Assembly (NCBI GenBank): GCA_963706575.1 | Contig: CAVPNL010000004.1 | Location: forward strand, 448,001-512,000 | Source: an uncultured delta proteobacterium | GTDB lineage: Bacteria > Desulfobacterota > Desulfobacteria > Desulfobacterales > JAHEIW01 | Length of the DNA stretch: 64,000 nucleotides | Direction: 5' to 3' | In this document: positions 2,970-49,486 of the stretch, one piece after another | Layout of the letters: every line of letters begins with the position of its first letter | Numbering within the stretch: position 1 is the first letter of the stretch | Program-made: the position numbers and the translations under genes | The notes under the pieces: generated by a model | Databases searched by the model: none | Seen by the model: only the letters and a program-made list of their open reading frames with translations | What the model was told of the DNA's origin: nothing

Positions 2970-3965
2970 ATGAATCCGAACGAAAGAAAAGTACGTGCCT
3001 TAGGCTTGTGTTCCGGAGGTCTGGACAGCACGCTGGCCGGCCTGGTGTTACGCGATCAGGGAATCGATGTCGAATGGATCACATTTGAGACGCCGTTCTT
3101 TGCGGCGGCCAAAGCCCGTAAGGCTTCTGAAAATACGGGCATCCCCTTAACCGTTAAACCCATTTATCCCGTTTACATCAACATGTTGAAGAATCCGCCG
3201 GCCGGATACGGCAAACAAATGAACCCCTGTATGGATTGTCACGCCCTCATGTTCAAACTGGCCGGCGAGGTGATGAAGGAAAAAAATTTTGATTTTCTGT
3301 TTAGCGGTGAAGTCCTGGGACAGCGGCCGATGTCGCAGACCAAATCATCCCTGATGTATGTCGAAAAACATTCGGGCTTTAAAGGGTATATTCTGCGGCC
3401 GTTAAGCGCCAAAAAGCTTCCGGAAACCATTCCGGAAAAGGAAGGCCTGGTCGACCGCGAACGTCTGCTGGACTTTGCGGGCCGGGGCCGCAAACCTCAA
3501 ATCGCGCTGGCCAGGAAATTCGACCTCACCGATTATCCCGCTCCGGCCGGTGGCTGCCTGCTGACCGACGTCGCATATTCCAAGCGACTGAAAGATCTGT
3601 TTGCCCATCAGGATGAGTGCACGGAGGAAGAGTTGCACCTTTTAAAATACGGTCGCCATTTTCGCTTGAATCCGCAAACGAAACTGATTGTCGGACGCAC
3701 TCAGAAAGATAATGAAAACATATTGAAATATCACAATTCGCAAACCGATACGGTGATCGACGTCAAAGATTACTCCAGCCCCATTGGGCTGGTCCCCCGT
3801 GGCGGTCCCAAAGATGTGACTTATCTGGCAAGTTCCATCTGCGTCGGTTACAGCAAGGCCTCCAACCTGACCCCCATCGATGTCGTCATCAAAACACCTC
3901 AAAGCCGGGAAACCATCCAGGTCATTGGTATTCCCACCGATGATTTTAAAAAATTATTAATTTAG
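2970..3965 (+). CDS. ThiI/MnmA-like PP-loop tRNA thiolation enzyme (no THUMP domain)
   Basis: PP-loop SGGLDS, PCMDCH, GEVLGQRPMSQ, PAGGCLLTD, GRHFRL. Confidence 0.85.
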   Translation: MNPNERKVRALGLCSGGLDSTLAGLVLRDQGIDVEWITFETPFFAAAKARKASENTGIPLTVKPIYPVYINMLKNPPAGYGKQMNPCMDCHALMFKLAGEVMKEKNFDFLFSGEVLGQRPMSQTKSSLMYVEKHSGFKGYILRPLSAKKLPETIPEKEGLVDRERLLDFAGRGRKPQIALARKFDLTDYPAPAGGCLLTDVAYSKRLKDLFAHQDECTEEELHLLKYGRHFRLNPQTKLIVGRTQKDNENILKYHNSQTDTVIDVKDYSSPIGLVPRGGPKDVTYLASSICVGYSKASNLTPIDVVIKTPQSRETIQVIGIPTDDFKKLLI

Positions 3966-4010
3966 GTATTGGGTATTAGGTATTGGGTATTGGGTATTGG
4001 GTATTGGGTA
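3963..4010. repeat. Heptamer tandem array (TGGGTAT)x7, one arm flanking four-helix-bundle gene 1
   Basis: taggtat tgggtat taggtat tgggtat tgggtat tgggtat tgggta; starts in the TAG stop of the upstream gene. Confidence 0.95.
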
Positions 4011-4034
4011 CAAAGAACAAATCGATACCACCAA

Positions 4035-4412
4035 TTAGGTTTTTATTTCTTTTTGATGGGCCTTTTTAATCGATCCTATATATGCATTAAGCCTTTTAGG
4101 TAATATTTCAATTATTTCGTTAATTTCCTCGATCTTATTTTTTATTAAATTCCTCCGAATAGCTTTGAAAAACCAACTCCTGCACTCAAATAAAGAACCT
4201 CTGGCATAATAGCAAAATCTCAAACGATCATTATAATGATAACGTCCATGACCTTCAGCAATGTTAGCAGAAATGGAATCAGCCGCGCGGACCAGTTGCT
4301 TTCCAACAGTGTCTCTTGCGGAGTAATCCAGCCTGATGCATAATTCCCATATCTTGTCAGATAAATCTTCAGCCATTTGATAAATTTCAAGATCTTCAAC
4401 TTTTAATACCAT
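4035..4412 (-). CDS. Four helix bundle protein (23S rRNA-IVP / Avd-like family)
   Basis: VEDLEIYQ, QLVRAADSISANIAEGHGR, FCYYARGSLFE. AT-rich relative to its neighbours; GAGGAGG RBS. Confidence 0.93.
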   Translation of the reverse strand: MVLKVEDLEIYQMAEDLSDKIWELCIRLDYSARDTVGKQLVRAADSISANIAEGHGRYHYNDRLRFCYYARGSLFECRSWFFKAIRRNLIKNKIEEINEIIEILPKRLNAYIGSIKKAHQKEIKT

Positions 4413-4475
4413 TTCAATCCTCCTCGTAACTCTGCTTCAAACCAAAAAGTGTTTAGTACTATCATTTGCCAACTC

Positions 4476-4508
4476 ATTACCAACAACTAATACCTAATAC
4501 CCAATACC
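4476..4508. repeat. Inverted heptamer arm (ATACCCA family) flanking four-helix-bundle gene 1
   Basis: attaccaacaactaatacctaatacccaatacc; the reverse complement ggtattgggtattaggtattag... matches the 3963-4010 array and overlaps the last codons of rlmN. Confidence 0.85.
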
Positions 4509-12582: not shown

Positions 12583-12860
12583 TGACAGAGGACAGATCCA
12601 AGTGATTGCGGATTTCAGATTGCGGATTGCGGATTGTGGGGGATAGACGGAAATATGGCATTTTATCCGGCATCTTGGCATAAATTAAATCAGATAAATC
12701 GAAGGTCGCATTATGCTTTTTTATACATTACTCCAGCACTCCAATTCAGCCGCCGTTGCCAAAGGCTACTATGGCGAAGTCGTTTAAGCTATTACTTCAG
12801 AATTAAAGATATTTAATAATTATGGTCCCAATCCAAAATCCGCAATCCGCAATCCGCAAT
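12557..12860. repeat. Compound repeat junction: TCAGAGG array, then an inverted GATTGCG/CAATCCG pair enclosing other repeat remnants
   Basis: tcagagg tcagaag tcagagg (from 12557); gattgcg gatttca gattgcg gattgcg gattgtg (12604-12638); caatcca aaatccg caatccg caatccg caat (12829-12860). Confidence 0.9.
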
Positions 12861-13421
12861 AAGGTCATTTACCCTGTAATCTTAGCGGTACCGGATGCGA
12901 TTAAGGCGCTAACGCCGAAGGAACGCGTCAAATTCCTCAGCCGACATGCCCGGCGTGCCCTCGAGATGTCTGCTGAAAAAAGCCGCATTCGCCTCGACGC
13001 GCTTGCACAGGATGAACGCAACGCCCCCCTGCCTTTCAACGGTACGTACTGGTCGATTACCCACAAAAATGAATATGTCGGCGGGGTGGTCTGCCCGTCG
13101 CCGACCGGCATTGATATTGAAAAAATCTGCCCGCGCGCAAAATCTCTGTTTCGAAAAACCGCTGATGAAGCCGAATGGGCATTGGCCGATAAGACGTTCA
13201 CGACGTTTTTCCGCTACTGGACGGCAAAAGAAGCGGTATTGAAGACTGCCGGTATCGGCCTGAGAGACCTTTCAAAATGCCGGATTCGCAGGGTCCGGGA
13301 CCCGCACCATCTCGATCTGGCATACGATGGTAACAATTGGCGGATCGAGCACCATTTCTTTAACAACCATATTGCATCCATTGTTAAAAACGACTTTTTG
13401 ATCGAATGGACAGTTGCATAA
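12822..13421 (+). CDS. 4'-phosphopantetheinyl transferase superfamily protein (Sfp-like)
   Basis: YWSITHK, GIDIE, FFRYWTAKEAVLKTAGIGL. Confidence 0.9.
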   Translation: MVPIQNPQSAIRNKVIYPVILAVPDAIKALTPKERVKFLSRHARRALEMSAEKSRIRLDALAQDERNAPLPFNGTYWSITHKNEYVGGVVCPSPTGIDIEKICPRAKSLFRKTADEAEWALADKTFTTFFRYWTAKEAVLKTAGIGLRDLSKCRIRRVRDPHHLDLAYDGNNWRIEHHFFNNHIASIVKNDFLIEWTVA

Positions 13422-25424: not shown

Positions 25425-26255
25425 TTATTCAGCAATCAATTTGTTACGATGTTCGACGTAGGCATCGCGAACCGCCACATAGGGGTCCAGTACGGCCTCT
25501 TTCATGGCATCGATATCGTCAATCTGAAACGATAATTCATTAAACTTGTCATAGGCCGTTATGGCCACTGTTGTCCGCCAGCTGTAACCGCCGAACTTAT
25601 CGTATCTGAGCCAGCTGACCGGATCTAAAAAATACGAGTCGATAAACCGGGCAGTATCGCGCAGGGTGTATGGCCCTAAAACGGGTAGCATAATGAAAAA
25701 ACCGTTTCCGGTGCCCCAGACGGCCAGTGTCTGGCCGAGGTCCTCGGGACTGGGCGGTAGATTTTCATAATGAGAAGCCACATCGCCGATGCCCAGAAAA
25801 CCGACGCTGGTGTTCAATAAAAAGGAGCCAAATTCCTCCGCGGCCTTAACGCCCTTGGCCTGCAAAAGGCAGTTGACAAATCGGATGGGAAATCTCAGAT
25901 TGTAAAAAAAATTTTTGACGCATGACCGAACTTCAACCGGCATAATCTTGTTGTATACTTTGGCCGTCGGCTTTAATAAAATAATGTACAGGCTGTCATT
26001 GAACCAGAACATATCACGGTTGAACTGGTGCAGGGGGTCGTTAATCTGGACGACATCATCCGCATATTCGTCATCGTCTTCGTAGTCTTCATCTTCCTCA
26101 GCTTCTGCTTCCTGACTTTGCTGGGCCAGATAGAGTCCGGGCTCACGGTCCGCTGCAAAAGCGGGAGTGCAAAAACAAACGATCGAGAAAAAAACCAACA
26201 TTATTGCCGCAGCCAATAATTTTTTCACGGGTTTCGCTCCTTTCTGCTTTTTCAT
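25425..26255 (-). CDS. mlaA: VacJ/MlaA family protein
   Basis: DPLHQFNRDMFWFND, NTSVGFLG, EDLGQTLAVWG, LPVLGP, DPYVAVRDAY. Confidence 0.92.
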   Translation of the reverse strand: MKKQKGAKPVKKLLAAAIMLVFFSIVCFCTPAFAADREPGLYLAQQSQEAEAEEDEDYEDDDEYADDVVQINDPLHQFNRDMFWFNDSLYIILLKPTAKVYNKIMPVEVRSCVKNFFYNLRFPIRFVNCLLQAKGVKAAEEFGSFLLNTSVGFLGIGDVASHYENLPPSPEDLGQTLAVWGTGNGFFIMLPVLGPYTLRDTARFIDSYFLDPVSWLRYDKFGGYSWRTTVAITAYDKFNELSFQIDDIDAMKEAVLDPYVAVRDAYVEHRNKLIAE

Positions 26256-26365
26256 ATGAAATCCGCCAACACCGATGCGCTTCGCCGGTTTCCGTCAAAA
26301 GGGGAATATTCGATAAAAACCCAATCAGCCATGACGTTTCGCCAGAAGACAGGGCGCCGGAAGCC

Positions 26366-26980
26366 TTAGCCGGCTGGCTTTTCTTTGGTTTTTTCCCGCA
26401 GGGTTTGCAGCAGGTCTTCGGGCTTCTTTGTCGAAAGAATCTGCCTGAACTGCCCGCGATAGTTTTTGACCATGCTGACGCCTTCGATGACGACATCGTA
26501 GACCCGCCATTGACCGCTTTTATCGGTCATCCGGTAAAACAAGGGCACCTTTTTATTATCCGTCGTGATAATATAGCTTTCAACTTCCACCCTGCCCTTC
26601 TTGAGTTCGGTCTCTTTGCCGAATTCGATTTTCTCCTGGGTATAGGCCAGAATGCGGTCCGCATAGATACCTTTAAGAAGTTCCTCAAAAAGCGTCACGA
26701 ATTCTTTTTGCTGATCCGGCGAAAAATTTTTCCATTCCCGCCCGAGGGTGCGCTGCGACAGCTCCTGCCAATCAAATACCTTATTAATGATCGTGCTGAT
26801 CTCAGTCAGTTTGGCGTCTTTCTGCAACCCTTTAAATTCCGGCGTCTGCATTTTGGCCAGCATCTTGTCGATTTGCGCTTTAACCGTGTCTTTTGCACCG
26901 CCGGCCAATACCGGCAACGGCAGGATCAATAAAACAACAAGTAGTATGATTATTTTCAGTCCGATACGTTTACTTTTCAT
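26366..26980 (-). CDS. mlaC: MlaC/Ttg2D phospholipid-binding periplasmic protein
   Basis: LGREWK, WRVYDVVIEGVSMVKNYRGQF. Confidence 0.92.
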   Translation of the reverse strand: MKSKRIGLKIIILLVVLLILPLPVLAGGAKDTVKAQIDKMLAKMQTPEFKGLQKDAKLTEISTIINKVFDWQELSQRTLGREWKNFSPDQQKEFVTLFEELLKGIYADRILAYTQEKIEFGKETELKKGRVEVESYIITTDNKKVPLFYRMTDKSGQWRVYDVVIEGVSMVKNYRGQFRQILSTKKPEDLLQTLREKTKEKPAG

Positions 26981-27071
26981 CTGTCTTTCCCTCCTGAAAA
27001 ACGAAAATTTACAACTTTAATAATATAGCCCGGCTAATCTTTAAGCGATATCATGTAACGCCCAATCCTGT

Positions 27072-27107
27072 TACCCAATACCGAATACCGAATACCTGAT
27101 ATCCAAT
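27072..27107. repeat. Single heptamer arm (TACCGAA / TTCGGTA family) directly after the mlaD stop
   Basis: tacccaa taccgaa taccgaa tacctga tatccaa. Confidence 0.8.
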
Positions 27108-27583
27108 TATTCTTCTTTTTCCTTCCCATCACCGCTGCCGACATCACCGAAGGCGTATTTGCTGACCAGGTCCATGATATCGGTCGGTGATTCGGTGTCG
27201 GTAATGGTATCACCGTTTGCCAGCAAATCACCACCGCCGCCGGCATCGATGCTGACGAATTTATCGCCGATCAGCCCCTCGGTTTTGATGGAGGCAATGG
27301 CATCATCGTAGACCTCGATGCCGTTATTAATTTTTAATTCAACCACCGCCACCTGTTTTTCCTGGTCCATTTTAAATGACTCCACCCGGCCGATCTCCAG
27401 GCCCAGCATATTCACGGGGTTGCCGACCCTCAGACCCGTCACCGAGGTAAACTTGGCATATAAAGAGTAGGTGTTTTCTCCGAGAAATCCGACATTGCCA
27501 AGTTTCACCGTCATATAACCGATGGCGAGTAAACCGATAACCACAAAAATTCCAACGACTGTTTCCTGGGTATACTTTTTCAT
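27107..27583 (-). CDS. mlaD: MCE family protein MlaD
   Basis: N-terminal TM helix, FTSVTGLRVGNPV..G.EIGRV, ASIKTEGLIGDKFV. Confidence 0.94.
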   Translation of the reverse strand: MKKYTQETVVGIFVVIGLLAIGYMTVKLGNVGFLGENTYSLYAKFTSVTGLRVGNPVNMLGLEIGRVESFKMDQEKQVAVVELKINNGIEVYDDAIASIKTEGLIGDKFVSIDAGGGGDLLANGDTITDTESPTDIMDLVSKYAFGDVGSGDGKEKEE

Positions 27584-28854
27584 TGAGTCTTACCTCCACG
27601 TTCACATTGAAAGCGTGCAATGGGTGTTTGATTAAAGCGCGCAAATTCCATAACTGATTCGATTTCAATCTGGGGTTTGCCCTGGGCCAGCCCGGCCAGG
27701 ATTTTAAATTCAAACCAATCCTCGGCTGGTTTTTCGCCCTCTGCCAACGTCTTAATATCGGGCAAACCGTGTTCCCGAAAATCCGTTTTAAAGTCCGCCA
27801 TGATGCGCTGGCCCTCATCCAGATCCGAGTACGGCAGCACGGTGGCATATTCATTAATGGTCTGCCGCGATGAAAATCCCCCGACGGCACCAAAATGTTT
27901 ATTAATGTAAGAACCCAGGGCCCGGATGATCTCCTGGGCGGCATCATGTCCCATATGCTCGATGATGCTGTCCAGATCATCGACGGCAAAGGCGGCCACC
28001 GCATACATGGCATCGGGGTTCCGCTTGCTCAAATCGGTTTGATAGCGGACCTTGAAGTGACGTTTGGAGTACAGGCCGCTAATGTCTTGCTGCAGACTTT
28101 CAAGGCTCGTCAGGATTTCTTCACGGAACGGATGCTCGAATTCCTCGAATTCATCCGGCGTGCCCTGGAAAACGATTTTTTTACCGTAGAGCGCTAAAAT
28201 GCGATTGGAGATAAAATAGACATCCGGAATTTCGTGGCTGATCAAAAGCGCGGTAAAACCAAAGCGGCTTTGATATTCCGCCACCATGCCCAGGATCGCA
28301 TTTTTACGAATGGGGTCCTGGCCGGTGGTGGGCTCATCGAAGAGCACCAGGGACGGATCGGTCACCAGCGCCCGGGCCAGCGCAGCCCGCTTCTGCATAC
28401 CACCCGACAATTCAGACGGATATTTATCAAACACCTCGGTCAGCTCGGTCTGCTCTATGCTGGCCATGGCCTTCTCTGTAATTTCCTTTTTGCCCATATG
28501 GGTGGTCTGACGCAGCGGCAGGGCCACATTTTCAACAACCGTCATCGAGTCAAAAAGGGCATTGTTTTGAAACATATAACTGATCGAACCGATGTAAGCG
28601 TTCCACTCTTTTTTACTCATTTGATCGATGGGCTTGCCGCGATATAGAACTTGGCCCTCATCGGGTTTGAGCAGTCCGATAATGTGCTTGAGCGTCACGC
28701 TCTTACCGGTACCGCTCAAACCGATCAAAGTGGTCACTTCACCCTCATAAATTTTAAAGTCGACCTTATCCAGAATCGTCCGCACGTCGAATCGTTTGGT
28801 CACCCCTTTAAATTCGATTATTGGTTCTTTTTCCACAACAGGCTCTTTTTCCAT
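27580..28854 (-). CDS. mlaF: MlaF-type ABC ATPase fused to a C-terminal degenerate GGDEF-like domain
   Basis: Walker A GLSGTGKS, LSGGMQKR, LFDEPT, SHEI, then ~175 extra residues: DISGLYSKR, FAVDDLDSIIEHMGHDAA, RQTINEY. Confidence 0.88.
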   Translation of the reverse strand: MEKEPVVEKEPIIEFKGVTKRFDVRTILDKVDFKIYEGEVTTLIGLSGTGKSVTLKHIIGLLKPDEGQVLYRGKPIDQMSKKEWNAYIGSISYMFQNNALFDSMTVVENVALPLRQTTHMGKKEITEKAMASIEQTELTEVFDKYPSELSGGMQKRAALARALVTDPSLVLFDEPTTGQDPIRKNAILGMVAEYQSRFGFTALLISHEIPDVYFISNRILALYGKKIVFQGTPDEFEEFEHPFREEILTSLESLQQDISGLYSKRHFKVRYQTDLSKRNPDAMYAVAAFAVDDLDSIIEHMGHDAAQEIIRALGSYINKHFGAVGGFSSRQTINEYATVLPYSDLDEGQRIMADFKTDFREHGLPDIKTLAEGEKPAEDWFEFKILAGLAQGKPQIEIESVMEFARFNQTPIARFQCERGGKTQ

Positions 28855-28863
28855 AATAGGCCC

Positions 28864-29730
28864 CTACATAATGAAAGAGGTTACGATATAATCTGAAATC
28901 AGGATCATCACACATGAGAGCACCACCGCCGAAGTGGTGGACAGGCTCACACTTCTGGCGCCAAAGCTGTCGGTGCGCATATGAGTGTAAAAACCCTGAA
29001 AACAGCAAATGGTAACAACCAGAAGACCGAAGACCAATGATTTTACCAGACCCCCGGTAATATCTTCCATCTCAGTGGCGGAAACCACCCGGTAAAAATA
29101 CGCCCCGGAATTCACGCCCAGTAAAAGACAGCCGCTGACCCAGCCGCCGAGGATACCGATCATATCAAACAGGGTGGTCAAGATCGGAAAACTGATGACG
29201 GCCGCCGCAATCCGCGGACTGATCAAATACCCGACCGGATCGATGCGCATGGTCGACAGGGCATCGATCTGTTCGGAAATGCGCTGGATGCCGATTTCGG
29301 CGGTCATGGCCGACCCGGCCCGGGCGGTAATCATAATCGCGGTTAAAACCGGTCCCATTTCTCTGATCAACGAAAGGGCCACCGCGGTACCCAGCACCCC
29401 CACCGAGCCGAACTTAACCAGCACATGGTACAGCTGCAGGCCCAGGACCATACCGGTAAAAAAGCCCACCAGCATAACGATTTGGGCGGATTTGGCCCCG
29501 ATAAAATAAATCTGCTGGACGATGGCGGAAAACTGCCGGGGATGAAAAATCATGACCAGGGCGCGGAAAAAAAAGATCGCTATGGCGCCCAGGTTGCCGT
29601 TGATCCGGATCGCTCTGGCCCCGAATGGATGAAAAAGCCAGGTAAACGGATTGCCTGGCTTTGGTAACGCTATTTCCCCTGAAGGGTCTGGTTCGGAAGG
29701 ATTTTGTTCGCTTGAATTTTCTTCTGCCAT
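28864..29730 (-). CDS. mlaE: MlaE family ABC permease
   Basis: REMGPVLTAIMITARAGSAMTAEIG, SEQIDAL, STTSAVV. Confidence 0.95.
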   Translation of the reverse strand: MAEENSSEQNPSEPDPSGEIALPKPGNPFTWLFHPFGARAIRINGNLGAIAIFFFRALVMIFHPRQFSAIVQQIYFIGAKSAQIVMLVGFFTGMVLGLQLYHVLVKFGSVGVLGTAVALSLIREMGPVLTAIMITARAGSAMTAEIGIQRISEQIDALSTMRIDPVGYLISPRIAAAVISFPILTTLFDMIGILGGWVSGCLLLGVNSGAYFYRVVSATEMEDITGGLVKSLVFGLLVVTICCFQGFYTHMRTDSFGARSVSLSTTSAVVLSCVMILISDYIVTSFIM

Positions 29731-30158: not shown

Positions 30159-32264
30159 ATGGCAAACAGCCTTTACATCACCGCAGTGGCACCCGGAAGC
30201 GGCAAATCGGTTGTGGCCCTCGGTATTATGGAAATGCTTTCAAGACGAATCCGCCGCCTGGGTTATTTTCGACCCATCGTGCCTTCCGCAGAAGAACCGG
30301 ATAATAACATCCGGCTGATTAAGACACGTTACCACCTGGATCTGGATTATGAAGACATGTATGCCTGCGCACACGGTGACGCCCGTAACCTGGTTGCGGA
30401 AGGACGGGTTAAAACCCTTTTGAAGAACATTCTTAACAAATACAAAGCGCTGGAAAGTCGGTGTAATTTTGTTTTATGCGAGGGTACGGATTTTACCGGA
30501 GTGGGCTCCGCCTTTGAGTTCGAATTTAACGCCGATGTGGCCAACAATCTGGGAAGCGCAATTTTGGTGCTGGTCAACGGCCGCGGTAAATCACCCGATG
30601 AAAGCGTTGATGCCGCACAAGTGGCCAGGGAATCATTTGAAGATAAAGGGTGCACGGTGGCAGCCACCATCATTAACCGGGTGAATAATAAACAATTTGA
30701 GGATGTTAAGGATCAATTAAAAAAAATGGGCCTTGCAACAGAGCCGATTTACATTCTGCCCGAAGAGCCAAGCCTGGGGAAACCGACGGTCGGAGAAATC
30801 GCCCGCAACCTGAATGCCCAGATCCTGCAGGGTGAACCCACAGGGCTAAACCGCGATGTGCATGACTTCAAGGTTGCCGCCATGAATGTGCCGCATTTTT
30901 TGGATCGTATCGAAGACGGCGATCTCATTATCACACCGGGTGATCGTGCCGATGTGATTCTGGCAAGTCTGGCGACTACCGTCTCCGACACGTCGCCGAA
31001 TATCGCCGGGTTACTTTTGACCGGGGGGCTGACGCCGGAAGACCCGGTCCAGCGCCTGATCCAGGGCTTCAAAAAATATTCACCGCTTTCGGTGATCAAA
31101 GTAGATACCGACACCTACACCACCGCCATGAATGCCAGCGTGGTAAGACCGGCGCTGACACCTGAAAACGACCGCAAAATCGCCGCCGCATTAGGTGTTT
31201 TTGAATCCCACGTCAATACCCAAGAACTCGAGGACCGTATCCAGGTGGTGCGTTCCAATCGGGTCACGCCCATCATGTTCGAATATGAACTTATTGAAAG
31301 AGCCAAGGCCGATCGCCGCCGTATCGTCCTGCCCGAAGGCGCAGAAGAACGCATCCTGCGCGCCGGCGAAATCTTACTGCGGCGGGGTGTTGCCGACCTT
31401 ACGTTACTGGGCAACCCGGAAGAAATTAAAAATAAAATCGGGCTGCTGGGTCTCAATCTGGATGGAATCGAGATCATCGATCCGCACACATCCGAACATC
31501 GCCAGGACTTTGCCCGGACCTACTATGATTTGCGCAAGCACAAAGGCATATCGGAAGAAATGGCCGCTGACACGGTAAGCGATGTCAATTTTTTTGGGAC
31601 TCTGATGGTGTACAAAGATCTTTCCGACGGTATGGTATCGGGGTCCATTCACACCACCGGCGAAACGATTCTGCCGGCCCTTCAGATTATTCGCACCCGG
31701 CCGGGTTTTTCAGTGGTTTCCAGTGTTTTTTTGATGTGCCTGGCAGACCGGGTTCTGGTGTACGGAGATTGTGCGGTTAATCCCGATCCCAATGCCGAGC
31801 AGCTTGCGGAAATCGCCATCAGCTCAGCCGAAACCGCCGGCATTTATGGAATTCAGCCCCGCATCGCCATGTGCTCGTATTCCACCGGTGAATCCGGCAA
31901 GGGCGCAGAGGTTGATAAAGTGCGCCAGGCCACCCGCATCGTCAGGGAACGCCGGCCGGATTTAAAAATTGAAGGTCCGATTCAGTACGATGCCGCCGTG
32001 GATGCGGGAGTGGCGAAGACCAAAATGCCTGAAAGCGAGGTTGCCGGAAAGGCGACCGTTTTTATCTTTCCGGATTTAAATACGGGCAACAACCTGTACA
32101 AAGCCGTGCAGCGTTCCGCCAACGCGGTGGCCATCGGACCGATTCTGCAGGGATTGAATAAACCGGTCAACGATTTGAGCCGCGGCTGCACCATTGCCGA
32201 TATCGTCAACACCGTCGCTATCACAGCCATTCAGGCGCAAGCCGCGCGCCACCCGTCCAACTAA
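30159..32264 (+). CDS. pta: Phosphate acetyltransferase, long form
   Basis: N-terminal P-loop-like domain, DRTGG-type region (ITPGDRAD), RIVLPEG, YGDCAVNP, GPILQGLNKPVNDLSRG. Confidence 0.97.
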   Translation: MANSLYITAVAPGSGKSVVALGIMEMLSRRIRRLGYFRPIVPSAEEPDNNIRLIKTRYHLDLDYEDMYACAHGDARNLVAEGRVKTLLKNILNKYKALESRCNFVLCEGTDFTGVGSAFEFEFNADVANNLGSAILVLVNGRGKSPDESVDAAQVARESFEDKGCTVAATIINRVNNKQFEDVKDQLKKMGLATEPIYILPEEPSLGKPTVGEIARNLNAQILQGEPTGLNRDVHDFKVAAMNVPHFLDRIEDGDLIITPGDRADVILASLATTVSDTSPNIAGLLLTGGLTPEDPVQRLIQGFKKYSPLSVIKVDTDTYTTAMNASVVRPALTPENDRKIAAALGVFESHVNTQELEDRIQVVRSNRVTPIMFEYELIERAKADRRRIVLPEGAEERILRAGEILLRRGVADLTLLGNPEEIKNKIGLLGLNLDGIEIIDPHTSEHRQDFARTYYDLRKHKGISEEMAADTVSDVNFFGTLMVYKDLSDGMVSGSIHTTGETILPALQIIRTRPGFSVVSSVFLMCLADRVLVYGDCAVNPDPNAEQLAEIAISSAETAGIYGIQPRIAMCSYSTGESGKGAEVDKVRQATRIVRERRPDLKIEGPIQYDAAVDAGVAKTKMPESEVAGKATVFIFPDLNTGNNLYKAVQRSANAVAIGPILQGLNKPVNDLSRGCTIADIVNTVAITAIQAQAARHPSN

Positions 32265-32326
32265 AGATGTAGGATAAAAACTCTCTGGCAGAATAGTAAC
32301 CTCTAAAGCTAATAAGATGCTATTTA

Positions 32327-32359
32327 AATTGCGGATTGCAGATTGCGGATTGCGGATTT
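32327..32359. repeat. GATTGCG heptamer array, left arm of four-helix-bundle cassette 2
   Basis: aattgcg gattgca gattgcg gattgcg gattt. Confidence 0.93.
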
Positions 32360-32433
32360 AAAAAAGAATGCATTTAGGCATTATTGAAGGATCGGGAGGT
32401 TTAATATTCAAGAGAAACAATATGGAGGATCAA

Positions 32434-32805
32434 ATGGGTAATGGAAAAGCGATGAATCCAGAGGTCATGAAAGATAGGACAAAGAAATTTGCGAAACAAA
32501 TCATTCTCCTTTGCCGAAAAATGCCTAAAAATCGAGAAGGAAATTTGATTGGAAATCAAATATTCAGATCAGGCTCTTCTGTGGCATCCAACTATCGTGC
32601 AGCGTGCAGAGGGAGATCTAAAGCTGAATTCATTGCTAAAATGGGTATTGTAGAAGAAGAGGCTGATGAAACACTATTTTGGTTAGAGGTAATAGAAGAG
32701 GTAGAAATCTTTAAGAAAGATTCAATTTCATCTTTGATGCAAGAATGCAATGAGATTTTATCTATAGTAGTATCATCAATAAATACAGCCCGAAAAAGAA
32801 AGTAA
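32434..32805 (+). CDS. Four helix bundle protein (23S rRNA-IVP / Avd-like family)
   Basis: MKDRTKKFA, QIFRSGSSVASNYRAACRGRSKAEFIAKMGIVEEEADETLFWLE. AT-rich; GGAGG RBS 5 nt before ATG 32434 (exact start uncertain). Confidence 0.93.
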   Translation: MGNGKAMNPEVMKDRTKKFAKQIILLCRKMPKNREGNLIGNQIFRSGSSVASNYRAACRGRSKAEFIAKMGIVEEEADETLFWLEVIEEVEIFKKDSISSLMQECNEILSIVVSSINTARKRK

Positions 32806-32835
32806 GGTTATGATACAAATCAATAAATTCGAATT

Positions 32836-32866
32836 AATCCGCAATCTGCAATCCGAAATCCGCAAT
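32836..32866. repeat. AATCCGC heptamer array, right (inverted) arm of cassette 2
   Basis: aatccgc aatctgc aatccga aatccgc aat, ending just before the ackA RBS. Confidence 0.93.
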
Positions 32867-32880
32867 ACACAAGGTGGATT

Positions 32881-34098
32881 ATGAAAATTTTGGTGATCAA
32901 CTCCGGCAGTTCGTCCATCAAATACCGCCTCTTCGAGATGACCGAAAAAACCGTACTGGCATCCGGTGTTATGGAGCAAATCGGGGAAGCCCAAAGCCGT
33001 CTTACCCATCATGCCCGCAACAGCAAAGGTGAAATGGAAGAAATTGTCAACAGCGAGACTGTTGTCGATCATCAGGCGGGATTTCAGCTGATCGGGGCTG
33101 TTATGGGCGCATCGGGCGCTCTGCAGGATACCCAGGAACTGTCCGGTATCGGTCATCGAGTGGTACACGGCGGCGAAGAATTTAAACAACCAACGCTTAT
33201 CAATAAGAAAGTCATCGACACCATTCGTCGGCTGAGCCCCCTGGCCCCGCTGCACAATCCGGCCAATCTGCAGGGTATTGAAGTGGCCATACAGAGTGCA
33301 CCGCAGGTGCCCCAGGTCGCCGTCTTTGATACGGCCTTTCACCAGTCGATTCCGGTGCATGCCTTTCGCTATGCCATTCCGCAGAATCTCTACGAGGCCC
33401 ATCATGTGCGCCGCTATGGCTTCCACGGCACCTCGCACCATTACGTCACCAAACAGGCTGCAGCTTTAATGGACCGGCCCCTGGACGCCTTAAACCTGAT
33501 CACGCTGCATCTGGGAAACGGTGCCAGCGCAGCTGCCGTAAGAGGAGGTAAAAGTATCGACACCTCCATGGGCATGACGCCGCTGGAAGGCTTGATCATG
33601 GGCACCCGCTGCGGCGATATCGACCCGGCCATCATTTTTTACCTGAAGAGGAAGACCGGTCTGACCAGAGATGAAGTCGAAACCTTACTGAACAAAGACA
33701 GCGGCCTGAAGGGCATCTGCGGTGTCAATGACATGCGGCAAATTGAAGAACTCGCCCAGTCTGGCAATTCTCGGGCACTGCTGGCAATCGAGATGGTTTG
33801 CTACCGCATCAAAAAATATATTGGCGCCTATTATGCCGTCCTCGGCCGTCTCGATGCGCTTGTTTTTACGGCGGGAATTGGAGAAAAATCTCCTCTGATT
33901 CGGGCCGGTGCCTGCCGGGGACTGTCGCATCTGGGCATCGAGATTGACCCTGAAAAGAATAACCGGAAGTCAAAAAAAGCATTTGAGATTCAAACCCGGG
34001 GCGGTACTGTCAGGGTTCTTGTTATCCCAACCAACGAGGAACTCGAAATTGCCGAACAGACCCTGATGTGCATCCAAAAATTACCAAGGCCAGAATAA
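32881..34098 (+). CDS. ackA: Acetate kinase
   Basis: LVINSGSSSIK, GHRVVHGG, APLHNP, YGFHGTSH, TSMGMTPLEG, PTNEEL. Confidence 0.98.
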   Translation: MKILVINSGSSSIKYRLFEMTEKTVLASGVMEQIGEAQSRLTHHARNSKGEMEEIVNSETVVDHQAGFQLIGAVMGASGALQDTQELSGIGHRVVHGGEEFKQPTLINKKVIDTIRRLSPLAPLHNPANLQGIEVAIQSAPQVPQVAVFDTAFHQSIPVHAFRYAIPQNLYEAHHVRRYGFHGTSHHYVTKQAAALMDRPLDALNLITLHLGNGASAAAVRGGKSIDTSMGMTPLEGLIMGTRCGDIDPAIIFYLKRKTGLTRDEVETLLNKDSGLKGICGVNDMRQIEELAQSGNSRALLAIEMVCYRIKKYIGAYYAVLGRLDALVFTAGIGEKSPLIRAGACRGLSHLGIEIDPEKNNRKSKKAFEIQTRGGTVRVLVIPTNEELEIAEQTLMCIQKLPRPE

Positions 34099-38142: not shown

Positions 38143-39162
38143 ATGGCAACAACAATCGGTCTAATGGGCTTTGGAAGAATCGGAAGAAATTTATTCCGGA
38201 TTCTTTACCAGAGCGAAGACATTAAACTGGCCGCCATCAGTGACATTGCCGATCACAAGGCACTCGAGTACCTCTTGCGCTTTGATACGATTCTGGGGCC
38301 TTTCCCCGATGAGGTCAGCGTAGCGGAAGGCAACCTCTATGTGATCGGCCGCCAGATTCCCATGCTTTCTGAAAAAGAGCCCGGAGATGTCCCCTGGGGG
38401 GATTTAGGGGTGGATATTGTTATAGAAGCCACCGCCCAGAATCGGACCCGGGAGGACTTCGAAAAACACCTGAAGCAGGGTGCCAAGCGCGTGATTCTAT
38501 GCGTACCCCAGAAGACACCACCGGATATCACCGTGGTGATGGGAGTCAACGATGATCAGCTGAAAGCGGAACACCGGATTGTTTCCAATGGGTCCTGCAC
38601 AGCGCATTGCGCCGCACCGGTGGTCAAGATCCTGCACGAGGCCTTTGGCATCCAGAGAGCGTTTTTAAGTACCGTTCACGCCTATACCAATCAGCAACGC
38701 CTGGCGGATGTGCCTTCCGAGGATAAACGGCGCGGCCGCGCTGCCGCCGAAAATATCATCCCCCAGGAGACCAATGCTACCCAGGTGGTCACCGGGCTGA
38801 TTCCGGACCTTGCCGGGCGGCTGAGCGGTGCCTCCATGAACGTACCGGTCCCCAACGGGTCGGTGGTGGATTTGGTCTGCTGGCACGAGAAACCGGTGAC
38901 GGAACTGGCGATAAACGAGGTGATCCGAACCGCGGCGGCTTCGAATCGATGGCGGGGGATTCTGAACTATGAGGATGACCCCATTGTTTCCAGTGATATT
39001 ATTCGCAGTACCTACTCCAGCACTTTCGATTCCCTGGCAACAATGGTCCAAAAGGAAAGCGTTTCCAAAACACTGTCCTGGTATGACAATGGCTGGGGGT
39101 ACGCCCATCGGGTGGTTGATTTGATTAAAAAGTTTATGGAAATAGACAAGGAGGCCGCATAA
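38143..39162 (+). CDS. Divergent type I GAPDH-family protein (copy 1)
   Basis: GFGRIGR and catalytic Cys in SNGSCTAHC, but several conserved residues are altered (see findings). Confidence 0.9.
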   Translation: MATTIGLMGFGRIGRNLFRILYQSEDIKLAAISDIADHKALEYLLRFDTILGPFPDEVSVAEGNLYVIGRQIPMLSEKEPGDVPWGDLGVDIVIEATAQNRTREDFEKHLKQGAKRVILCVPQKTPPDITVVMGVNDDQLKAEHRIVSNGSCTAHCAAPVVKILHEAFGIQRAFLSTVHAYTNQQRLADVPSEDKRRGRAAAENIIPQETNATQVVTGLIPDLAGRLSGASMNVPVPNGSVVDLVCWHEKPVTELAINEVIRTAAASNRWRGILNYEDDPIVSSDIIRSTYSSTFDSLATMVQKESVSKTLSWYDNGWGYAHRVVDLIKKFMEIDKEAA

Positions 39163-40169
39163 TGGCTATTCAAGTTGGCATAAATGGCTTCGGCCGTATC
39201 GGCCGGAGCGTATTTCGGATTATCAGTGATCGCGACGACATGGAAGTGGTTGCGATCAACGACTTGTTTGACAATGAGCAACTCGCCTACCTCCTCAAAT
39301 ATGATACCGTCATGGGCATTTTTGATAAGGCGGTAACTGCGGAATCAGACGCCATGACCGTCGACAATCACCGGGTGGTGATGACCGAGCATCGCGATCC
39401 GGCGCAGATCCCCTGGAAGGATTTAGGTGCTCAATTTGTGATTGAATCCACCGGTGTTTTCCGTACTCGCGAACCGCTGGAAAAACACATGGCAGCGGGC
39501 GCCGAAAAAGTGATTCTGACCGTACCGGCAAAAGAAGAAATTGACGCCACCATTGTGATCGGGGTCAACGACCAGGAACTGAAGCCGGAACACCGCATTG
39601 TTTCCAACGCATCCTGCACCACCAATTGCCTGGCACCGATCGCTAAGATCCTGGATGATGAGTTCGGCCTTGAAGAGGGTTTTATCACCACGGTGCACGC
39701 CTACACCAATGACCAGCGCCTGGCGGATGTGCCCCACAAGGATTTTCGCCGCAGCCGGGCGGCCGGTGAAAATATCATTCCGACAACCACCGGAGCAGCC
39801 AAGGCCGTCGGTAAAGTGTTGCCCCAGCTGAAGGGCAAACTGGATGGTTTGGCCATGCGGGTGCCGGTGCCGGACGGCTCGATCGTGGACCTTGTCTGCC
39901 GATTGGGCAAAAAAGCTTCCCGCAAAGATATCAATGCGGCGGTGCAGGAAGCCGCCAAAGGGCCGATGCAGCGTGTGGTCGAATACAGTGAGGCGCCGCT
40001 GGTATCCAGCGATATCATCGGCAACACCCATTCGAGCATCTTCGATGCCCTGTCGACCAGCTCCCAGGAAGACGGGTATGCCCGCATTGTTTCCTGGTAT
40101 GACAATGAGTGGGGCTACTCGAATCGGGTGGTGGATTTAATCAAGATGCTGGCAGCATTCGGCAAATAA
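39162..40169 (+). CDS. gap: Type I glyceraldehyde-3-phosphate dehydrogenase (copy 2, canonical)
   Basis: INGFGRIGR, SNASCTTNC, HAYTNDQ, IPTTTGAA, MRVPV, WYDNEWGY. Confidence 0.97.
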   Translation: MAIQVGINGFGRIGRSVFRIISDRDDMEVVAINDLFDNEQLAYLLKYDTVMGIFDKAVTAESDAMTVDNHRVVMTEHRDPAQIPWKDLGAQFVIESTGVFRTREPLEKHMAAGAEKVILTVPAKEEIDATIVIGVNDQELKPEHRIVSNASCTTNCLAPIAKILDDEFGLEEGFITTVHAYTNDQRLADVPHKDFRRSRAAGENIIPTTTGAAKAVGKVLPQLKGKLDGLAMRVPVPDGSIVDLVCRLGKKASRKDINAAVQEAAKGPMQRVVEYSEAPLVSSDIIGNTHSSIFDALSTSSQEDGYARIVSWYDNEWGYSNRVVDLIKMLAAFGK

Positions 40170-49391: not shown

Positions 49392-49486
49392 AATTGCGGA
49401 TTGCAGATTTCGGATTGCGGATTTAAAGATCAGAAATTTATGCATTATTTCAAACAATCCGCATTCCGCAATCCGAAATCTAAAAT
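49392..49486. repeat. Inverted GATTGCG/CAATCCG heptamer pair, empty
   Basis: aattgcg gattgca gatttcg gattgcg gattt (49392-49424) and caatccg cattccg caatccg aaatcta aaat (49455-49486). Confidence 0.92.

What the first reader, a model, noticed from the sequence alone, without database searches (positions are those of the whole stretch)
32327..32866. Four-helix-bundle gene inside an inverted heptamer-array cassette, splitting pta from ackA
Seen: an AT-rich four-helix-bundle ORF lies between pta and ackA. It is bracketed by about 4.5 copies of GATTGCG and the reverse-complement array AATCCGC, which ends just before the ackA RBS. Known: this protein family (23S rRNA IVP / Avd-like) was first found in the loop of rRNA intervening-sequence hairpins, and it is structurally related to the nucleic-acid-binding Avd of diversity-generating retroelements. 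Inference: this is an IVS-like stem-loop cassette in an mRNA. It may be mobile, or removed at the RNA level (for example by RNase III), and the encoded protein may bind its own repeat. No transposase, recombinase or reverse transcriptase is adjacent.
Basis: partly seen in the sequence, partly recalled or inferred. Interest (0 to 1): 0.85.

Follow-up and report, generated by a model that had tools for sequence, protein, structure and literature searches.

The report
Swappable repeat-armed gene cassette, pta-ackA slot
A small conserved gene wrapped in two mirror-image runs of a 7-base repeat sits in a gap between two acetate genes that related bacteria fill with different repeat elements, and it likely belongs to a slow-moving family of mobile DNA whose protein is predicted to recognise its own repeat.

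Summary
In detail: 31-nt inverted GATTGCG arrays enclose a TIGR02436/PF05635 gene (likely start 32434) between pta and ackA. The layout is typical of the family: 92 of 127 homologues in relatives and 67 of 77 across phyla have inverted arms, and the repeat unit follows the protein clade. The genome holds about 175 inverted heptamer elements, only 4 with the gene.

The pta-ackA gap behaves as a slot. In 17 of 17 visible genus alleles it holds some repeat element: this cassette, a paralogue, a decayed copy or unrelated gene-less hairpins. The cassette is old and under purifying selection, was replaced several times, and one copy sits at the same junction in a host whose pta and ackA are of a distant type.

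Best reading: an exchangeable DNA element organised like RAYT/REPIN, with no transposase of its own; binding of the arms is inferred. RNase III removal is untested, and the stems show no G·U bias. The scan has noted this class before on other DNA (740 notes); I did not find it in the papers searched.

The parts
30159..32264 (+). pta, phosphate acetyltransferase (host gene, left flank)
   Evidence: NF004167 939 bits
32265..32327 (+). 63-nt spacer between the pta stop and the left arm; alignable in L013, absent in L180 where the arm starts at the pta stop
32328..32358 (+). left arm, about 4.4 x GATTGCG (one GATTGCA variant), the G-rich arm
32424..32428 (+). putative RBS GGAGG of the four-helix-bundle gene
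   Evidence: sequence; conserved in homologues
32434..32805 (+). four-helix-bundle gene, 123 aa, TIGR02436/PF05635, S23p/Xcc0516/Avd fold (the ORF finder extends it to 32368)
32836..32866 (+). right arm, about 4.4 x AATCCGC, reverse complement of the left arm
32871..32877 (+). putative ackA ribosome-binding site just outside the right arm
   Evidence: sequence
32881..34098 (+). ackA, acetate kinase (host gene, right flank)
   Evidence: TIGR00016 494 bits
3962..4508 (-). second armed cassette in the window: GGTATTG arms around a TIGR02436 gene at 4035-4412
12605..12863 (.). gene-less inverted GATTGCG element (194-nt loop)
49406..49480 (.). gene-less inverted GATTKCG element (33-nt loop)

Best explanation
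This is one gene-bearing copy of a family of exchangeable DNA elements whose inverted repeat arrays are likely the element's ends and likely binding sites for the encoded four-helix-bundle protein. SHOWN: the arm-gene-arm layout; unit type follows protein clade; many gene-less copies, some with shared loops at unrelated sites; nesting of one class inside another; long residence under purifying selection; repeated replacement at this junction; one transfer into the same junction of a distant host without flanking pta or ackA sequence. INFERRED: the protein forms a pentamer like its solved relatives and binds the roughly 4-5 units of each arm as single-stranded or hairpin nucleic acid, holding both ends together. 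A host or trans-acting enzyme (unknown; the genome has Y1/HUH transposases and one group II intron RT) would do the strand transfer into junctions that already carry a hairpin, just after a stop codon. The cassette has no detected promoter and likely depends on read-through from the operon, which would explain why gene-bearing copies are mostly sense-oriented between co-transcribed genes. The arms leave the ackA RBS intact, so the insert is likely close to neutral.
For: Arms: 92 of 127 FHB loci against 21 of 500 mismatched flank pairs and 19 of 1083 small ORFs; 67 of 77 cross-phylum homologues. Unit follows protein: the nearest protein at another site has a similar unit in 43 of 92 (shuffled mean 10, max 26); this cassette's motif flanks 20 of 77 close homologues in 8 phyla against 2 of 119 other-clade loci. 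Natural control: a 20-member armless clade (0 of 19 scored reach 24) sits at one site in 19 of 20 cases, whereas the GGTGTCA clade maps to at least four different G000 junctions. Gene-less copies: 175 elements, 4 with the gene; about 15 copies of one composite at distinct sites. Slot turnover: (AU p 4e-71). Transfer: L180. Purifying selection: dN/dS about 0.06-0.16. Fold: TM 0.73-0.84 to 2RLD, 2GSC and Avd. Median arm 4.6 units, n = 101. No G·U excess on the transcribed strand. Sense orientation: 61 of 85 cassettes co-oriented with both neighbours by a crude ORF test, 6 with an opposite neighbour.
Against: No catalytic partner was identified and no target-site duplication was seen by eye. The most abundant class in G000 (GGTGTCA, 40 exact dimers) has no cognate gene in the 92%-complete assembly, so copies may be relics or may move without the cognate protein. 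Moves are rare: GGTGTCA-clade genes at different sites differ by dS of at least 0.3, and most clades keep to one site. A match of unit to clade also follows from arms and gene simply travelling together, without any binding. Arm length is broad (10th-90th percentile 3.3-7.3 units), so the fit to a pentamer is loose. The cross-family case is one MAG contig. No precise excision joint was seen in 8 runs.
Confidence: 0.55

Rival explanations
1. mRNA intervening sequence: the arms are kept as an RNase III substrate, so the pta-ackA transcript is cut at the stem and the gene is released and degraded, uncoupling pta and ackA mRNA levels.
For: A 23-bp helix plus an 8-bp helix is predicted; RNase III is present in the genome; in Coxiella the IVS has a 28-bp terminal stem cut by RNase III, with heptamer repeats at the cut (PMC4990558, passages); the arms fit their own partner better than other same-class arms in 20 of 21 cases, though the arms were defined by that pairing.
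Against: G·U does not exceed A·C on the transcribed strand in three sets (41:58, 93:92, 64:67), while a hairpin control leans the other way (60:43, p 0.11; Fisher p 0.024 against the first set). 42 of 175 elements lie between convergent or divergent genes. It does not explain copying, nesting or transfer. Cleavage may still occur as a side effect.
Confidence: 0.2
2. Domesticated regulator: the protein binds the repeat RNA in TRAP fashion, opens or closes the stem beside the ackA RBS and tunes downstream translation; the gene-less hairpins are its regulon.
For: Strong purifying selection over dS of about 1; the right arm abuts the RBS in all filled alleles; Avd binds an RNA stem-loop with all five protomers (bioRxiv 2023.10.23.563531, passages).
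Against: The closest relatives have lost the cassette and carry unrelated repeat classes at the same junction; the gene is frameshifted or truncated in L013 and L022; same-class hairpins sit at scattered junctions in all orientations.
Confidence: 0.15
3. The arrays arise locally by slippage and template switching at tolerant junctions, and FHB genes only co-occur with them.
For: Unit number varies between the two near-identical contigs (L003 against L004); 421 of 3165 co-directional junctions hold a periodic tract.
Against: The same unit flanks related proteins in 8 phyla; gene-less copies share non-repetitive loops at unrelated sites; the G-rich arm comes first in 171 of 175.
Confidence: 0.05

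Closest known systems
ORF-bearing 23S rRNA intervening sequences (Coxiella burnetii helix 45, Leptospira; PMC4990558, abstract and passages read)
   Same: Same protein family (PF05635) in the loop of terminal inverted repeats; heptamer repeats upstream of the ORF (GACAGAT/GACAGAA, resembling one class found here); horizontal acquisition followed by vertical maintenance.
   Different: Here the site is a protein-coding operon junction, not rRNA; the gene has a good RBS and is under purifying selection, whereas the Coxiella ORF is decaying; there are many gene-less copies; RNase III cutting is not shown.
RAYT-REPIN system (Bertels and Rainey, bioRxiv 2021.07.10.451892, abstract and section 4 read)
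   Same: A rare, long-resident, conserved gene plus about 100-nt extragenic inverted-repeat copies with conserved arms and variable spacers; slow duplication.
   Different: The arms are tandem 6-10-mer arrays, not short palindromes; the protein matches only the four-helix-bundle family, not a HUH transposase; 8 genes of several unit classes occur in one genome; the gene-bearing copies themselves change site and host.
DGR accessory protein Avd (PDB 4DWL, 8UB7; bioRxiv 2023.10.23.563531, passages read)
   Same: Same fold (TM about 0.73-0.74); a basic protein (net +6); the solved relatives are five-chain structures.
   Different: About 11% identity; no NF033474 match and no DGR-type RT found in G000; no RT is adjacent.
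Xanthomonas/Nostoc intergenic heptamer repeats (Rehm et al., PMC4692102, passages read)
   Same: Intergenic heptamer arrays, often as inverted pairs (70 cases in Xcc).
   Different: Interpreted there as G-quadruplex formers; the terms 'S23' and 'four helix' do not occur in the main text; GATTGCG has no G-run.

Membership tests
TIGR02436 / PF05635 four-helix-bundle (S23p) proteins | HMM score over the curated cut-off | tested here: met
   90.3 against 24 bits; 64.4 against 33.8 bits
TIGR02436 / PF05635 four-helix-bundle (S23p) proteins | four-helix bundle like 2RLD and Xcc0516 | tested here: met
   pLDDT 94, four helices; TMq 0.84 to 2RLD, 0.80 to 2GSC
TIGR02436 / PF05635 four-helix-bundle (S23p) proteins | homopentamer | not testable with these tools
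23S rRNA IVS | located inside an rRNA gene | tested here: not met
   Flanks are pta and ackA; no rRNA match in 12 loci scanned with Rfam, 7 of them G000 FHB loci
23S rRNA IVS | terminal inverted repeats forming a long stem around the ORF | tested here: met
23S rRNA IVS | excised by RNase III | not testable with these tools
   Only contigs from RNA libraries of relatives were available; rnc is present
RAYT-REPIN | HUH/Y1 transposase between the repeats | tested here: not met
   The enclosed gene matches only PF05635; the 6 PF01797 matches lie elsewhere
RAYT-REPIN | many extragenic gene-less inverted-repeat copies sharing the arms | tested here: met
   175 elements, 173 outside called ORFs; shared loops
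RAYT-REPIN | gene single-copy, vertically inherited, non-jumping | tested here: inconclusive
   dS matches the host genes within the genus, but L180 and multi-site clades show movement
DGR | DGR RT, avd gene, TR/VR pair | tested here: not met
   The only RT found is a group II intron maturase; no NF033474 match; genome 92% complete
IS / MITE | cognate transposase and target-site duplication | tested here: inconclusive
   No transposase is adjacent; no duplication seen by eye at the L180 or window ends; no precise empty site was available

The most novel reading that the evidence does not exclude
A transposase-free homing system: each Avd-like pentamer reads its own 6-10-base repeat code, pairs the element's ends and delivers the cassette, or gene-less copies, into hairpin-marked gene junctions, even the same junction in distant hosts. 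Many unexplained bacterial heptamer arrays, and the rRNA intervening sequences, would be its footprints.
Probability: 0.25. Interest if true: 0.92.

Novelty: new variant of a known kind. Interest (0 to 1): 0.7.

Why it matters
It links a large protein family of unknown function (PF05635) with the unexplained excess of intergenic heptamer repeats, about which PMC4692102 says no detailed literature existed in 2015. It recasts rRNA intervening sequences as one landing site of a general element. It makes a direct test possible, because each protein clade predicts its own repeat unit. This locus adds the population picture: one housekeeping junction with filled, decayed, replaced and horizontally refilled alleles. 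In this genome 13% of co-directional gene junctions carry such tracts.

Tried and rejected
RNA processing: 8 runs were laid (X1, X2, X18, X19; X3, X4, X6, X23), all Logan contigs. The three RNA runs hold only 6-9% of the words, so they cover relatives and say nothing on ends or excision; joints that skip arm to arm carry other letters and have short sides, so they likely come from gene-less elements elsewhere.

Viral contigs: none of 28 pattern hits encodes a relative. Rfam over 31800-33300: 2 matches, both far below gathering score. Sigma-70 scan of 32150-33000: 0 promoter-like sites (shuffles 2.1) and no terminator-like site on the + strand.

The G·U test is weak: its positive control reached only p 0.11 and may include the elements themselves. 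The own-partner arm test is biased by how the arms were defined. Conserved residues (Q42, S49, N53, E79) are largely shared with the armless clade and suggest no catalytic motif to me. I did not try to derive a residue-to-base code. No complex was predicted, since five copies cannot be submitted.

Literature, 10 searches: TIGR02436, 0 papers; four helix bundle + inverted/tandem repeats + Avd, 0; S23 ribosomal protein + repeat + insertion + mobile, 0; some searches gave only the papers cited or listings that looked unrelated. PMC8700078 was seen as a listing only. No supplements were read; subscription journals are not covered.

Full report
OBSERVATION. The window has pta (30159-32264), a 616-nt gap, and ackA (32881-34098). 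In the gap two 31-nt arms (32328-32358, 32836-32866; 90% complementary) enclose an AT-rich gene of TIGR02436/PF05635. The likely start is ATG 32434, because homologues have indels upstream and run X4 has a 1-nt insertion at 32426. The model is a four-helix bundle (pLDDT 94) matching 2RLD, Xcc0516 and Avd. Contigs from two other studies bridge pta-arm-gene and gene-arm-ackA. Close homologues come from records titled Desulfobacterales or Deltaproteobacteria.

NOT CHANCE, AND TYPICAL OF THE FAMILY. G000 has 8 TIGR02436 matches, one a duplicate on a second contig. A search of 41 genomes gave 185 matches, 150 of them listed. I studied 142 loci, dropped 3 (two duplicates, one partial), and scored the 127 of 139 with full flanks. 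92 have an inverted repeat across the gene (score at least 30), against 21 of 500 mismatched flank pairs and 19 of 1083 small ORFs of G000; of those 19, six are the FHB genes themselves, three GxxExxY genes and one a Y1 transposase. Among the 80 closest homologues in the species collection, 77 had full flanks and 67 have arms.

THE UNIT TRAVELS WITH THE PROTEIN. Units of 6-10 bases map onto protein clades (quick tree, few columns). The nearest protein at a different site has a similar unit in 43 of 92 cases (shuffled mean 10, max 26; kin are not independent). This cassette's motif flanks both sides of 20 of 77 close homologues in 8 phyla, against 2 of 119 other-clade loci; L203 (Verrucomicrobiota, 53% identical protein) has nearly the same arms. 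One clade of 20 has no arms (0 of 19 scored reach 24), and 19 of the 20 sit at a single site. The GGTGTCA clade maps to at least four different G000 junctions. This link shows co-travel; binding is an inference.

GENE-LESS COPIES. G000 has 463 period-7 tracts; 238 have an inverted partner within 700 nt (7 in random regions). They collapse to 175 elements, 173 outside called ORFs, 171 with the G-rich arm first, and only 4 with the gene. A few are duplicates from the 6% contamination. Some gene-less copies share non-repetitive loops at unrelated sites (five copies, up to 91% alike over about 135 nt). About 15 of 18 aligned GATTGCG hairpins share a loop, and most sit inside octamer arms (read by eye). 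Others look like internal deletions of a full cassette at the same site, with arms, RBS and start codon left (C6:463468 against L101). Against a simple master-copy model: the commonest class, GGTGTCA, has no cognate gene in this 92%-complete assembly.

THE PTA-ACKA SLOT. Of 18 genus loci with ackA (the window's own included), 17 show at least part of the junction, and all 17 carry a repeat element (classed by eye): 5 full cassettes (one frameshifted, one a 65%-identical paralogue), 1 truncated, 1 a 46-nt remnant, and 10 gene-less elements of other classes, often nested. Bare junctions of 14-21 nt occur in other families (L031, L034, L281). The 7 GATT-class alleles do not form a clade on the ackA tree (AU p 4e-71; at least 4 changes), and the window's nearest relatives carry other classes. 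Synonymous divergence of the FHB gene matches ackA (1.10 against 1.01; 1.07 against 1.11; 0.31 against 0.44; one half-gene 0.44 against 0.89), with dN/dS of about 0.06-0.16. So the cassette is an old, selected resident that was repeatedly replaced. L021 and L084 catch replacement part-way: a paralogous cassette starts at the pta stop while part of the old right arm and the RBS region remain. Other junctions behave alike: of 24 G000 junctions that hold a cassette in a relative but no gene here, 10 carry a periodic tract, against 421 of 3165 co-directional junctions (p 0.0006) or 418 of 2166 with gaps of at least 40 nt (p 0.01). The strict detector missed several visible arrays.

TRANSFER TO THE SAME JUNCTION. 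L180 carries a cassette 87% identical to the window's protein, with alignable spacers, nested among the genus's pta-ackA copies (95/86 support). Its ackA is only 51% identical to the window's, and both its pta and ackA group with L032 of another family, which has an unrelated 9-mer-armed cassette at this junction. Informative sites favour the L032 type up to both ends (3 against 11 in the last pta block, 1 against 6 in the first ackA block), so no flanking gene sequence visibly came along. The left arm starts at the pta stop and the right arm ends at the RBS. This is one MAG contig, and the direction of transfer is not known.

DNA OR RNA. An RNA stem under selection should favour G·U over A·C on the transcribed strand. 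It does not: 41:58 (96 gene-less and filled elements), 93:92 (92 cassettes), 64:67 (67 cassettes). The control leaned to G·U but weakly (60:43, p 0.11), so this is modest evidence. RNase III is present and the predicted stem is long, so cutting may happen as a side effect; ackA keeps its own RBS. No usable RNA data were available.

MECHANISM. I commit to an exchangeable DNA element organised like RAYT/REPIN. The arms are likely ends recognised by the cognate pentamer (median 4.6 units per arm, n = 101, broad spread). Strand transfer would come from an unknown trans factor; G000 has 6 Y1 transposase matches and one group II intron RT, and no DGR avd. Targets are likely junctions already marked by a hairpin just after a stop codon. 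Expression likely relies on read-through (0 promoter-like sites; mostly sense orientation). Mobility and replacement are shown by comparison; binding, pentamer formation and the catalytic step are inferred.

KNOWN OR NEW. The protein family and the rRNA IVS are known (PMC4990558, abstract and passages; bioRxiv 2024.02.27.582315, two passages). PMC3936711 (one passage) notes these genes inside cas operons without mentioning arms in that passage. PMC4692102 (passages) describes inverted heptamer pairs without the gene. Ten searches found no paper on the combined system; supplements and subscription papers were not seen. The scan's own notes hold 740 findings of this class in at least 672 genomes; a look-up for junction replacement with horizontal homing returned none. 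It is not an IVS in the strict sense (not in rRNA) and not a RAYT (no HUH domain), but it works like both in part. Verdict: new variant of a known kind, interest 0.70.

Noticed in passing
window 3962-4508: A second armed four-helix-bundle cassette (GGTATTG units, gene 4035-4412 on the minus strand); the same site holds a copy with an in-frame stop near the start in L166.
   Followed up: partly
G000 C19:8585-8926, C6:266174-266521, C6:909823-910164 (L175-L177): Three of four GxxExxY (TIGR04256) genes are also bracketed by inverted 8-10-mer arrays. I recall this family as PD-(D/E)XK nuclease-like (no call); if so it is a parallel cassette class with a possible catalytic protein.
   Followed up: partly
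L072 (G000 C19:5693-6155); junctions in L026 and L028: A Y1 transposase between REP-like 25-nt inverted repeats; the same repeat sits in the pta-ackA junction of two relatives.
   Followed up: no
G000 C4:622300-622620 (L005) and 19 orthologues: Armless four-helix-bundle clade fixed at one site, with altered motif residues; a candidate domesticated member.
   Followed up: partly
G000 C20 against C6 (L003/L004); C16/C17, C16/C21, C5/C6 pairs: Duplicated regions, likely a second strain in the bin; L003 and L004 have identical genes but different unit numbers in one arm.
   Followed up: partly
L068 (G000 C4:300193-303849): A group II intron with RT/maturase, the only RT found in the genome.
   Followed up: partly
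L085, L271, L280: Repeat arms start at or near the pta stop even where ackA was not found downstream, which suggests the hot spot is tied to the pta 3' end.
   Followed up: no
window 25425-29730: An Mla/Ttg2-like cluster (my reading of the sequences, no family scan) whose ABC ATPase (27580-28854) has a long C-terminal extension.
   Followed up: no
window 38143-40169: Two tandem, divergent GAPDH-like ORFs whose stop and start overlap (my reading, no family scan).
   Followed up: no
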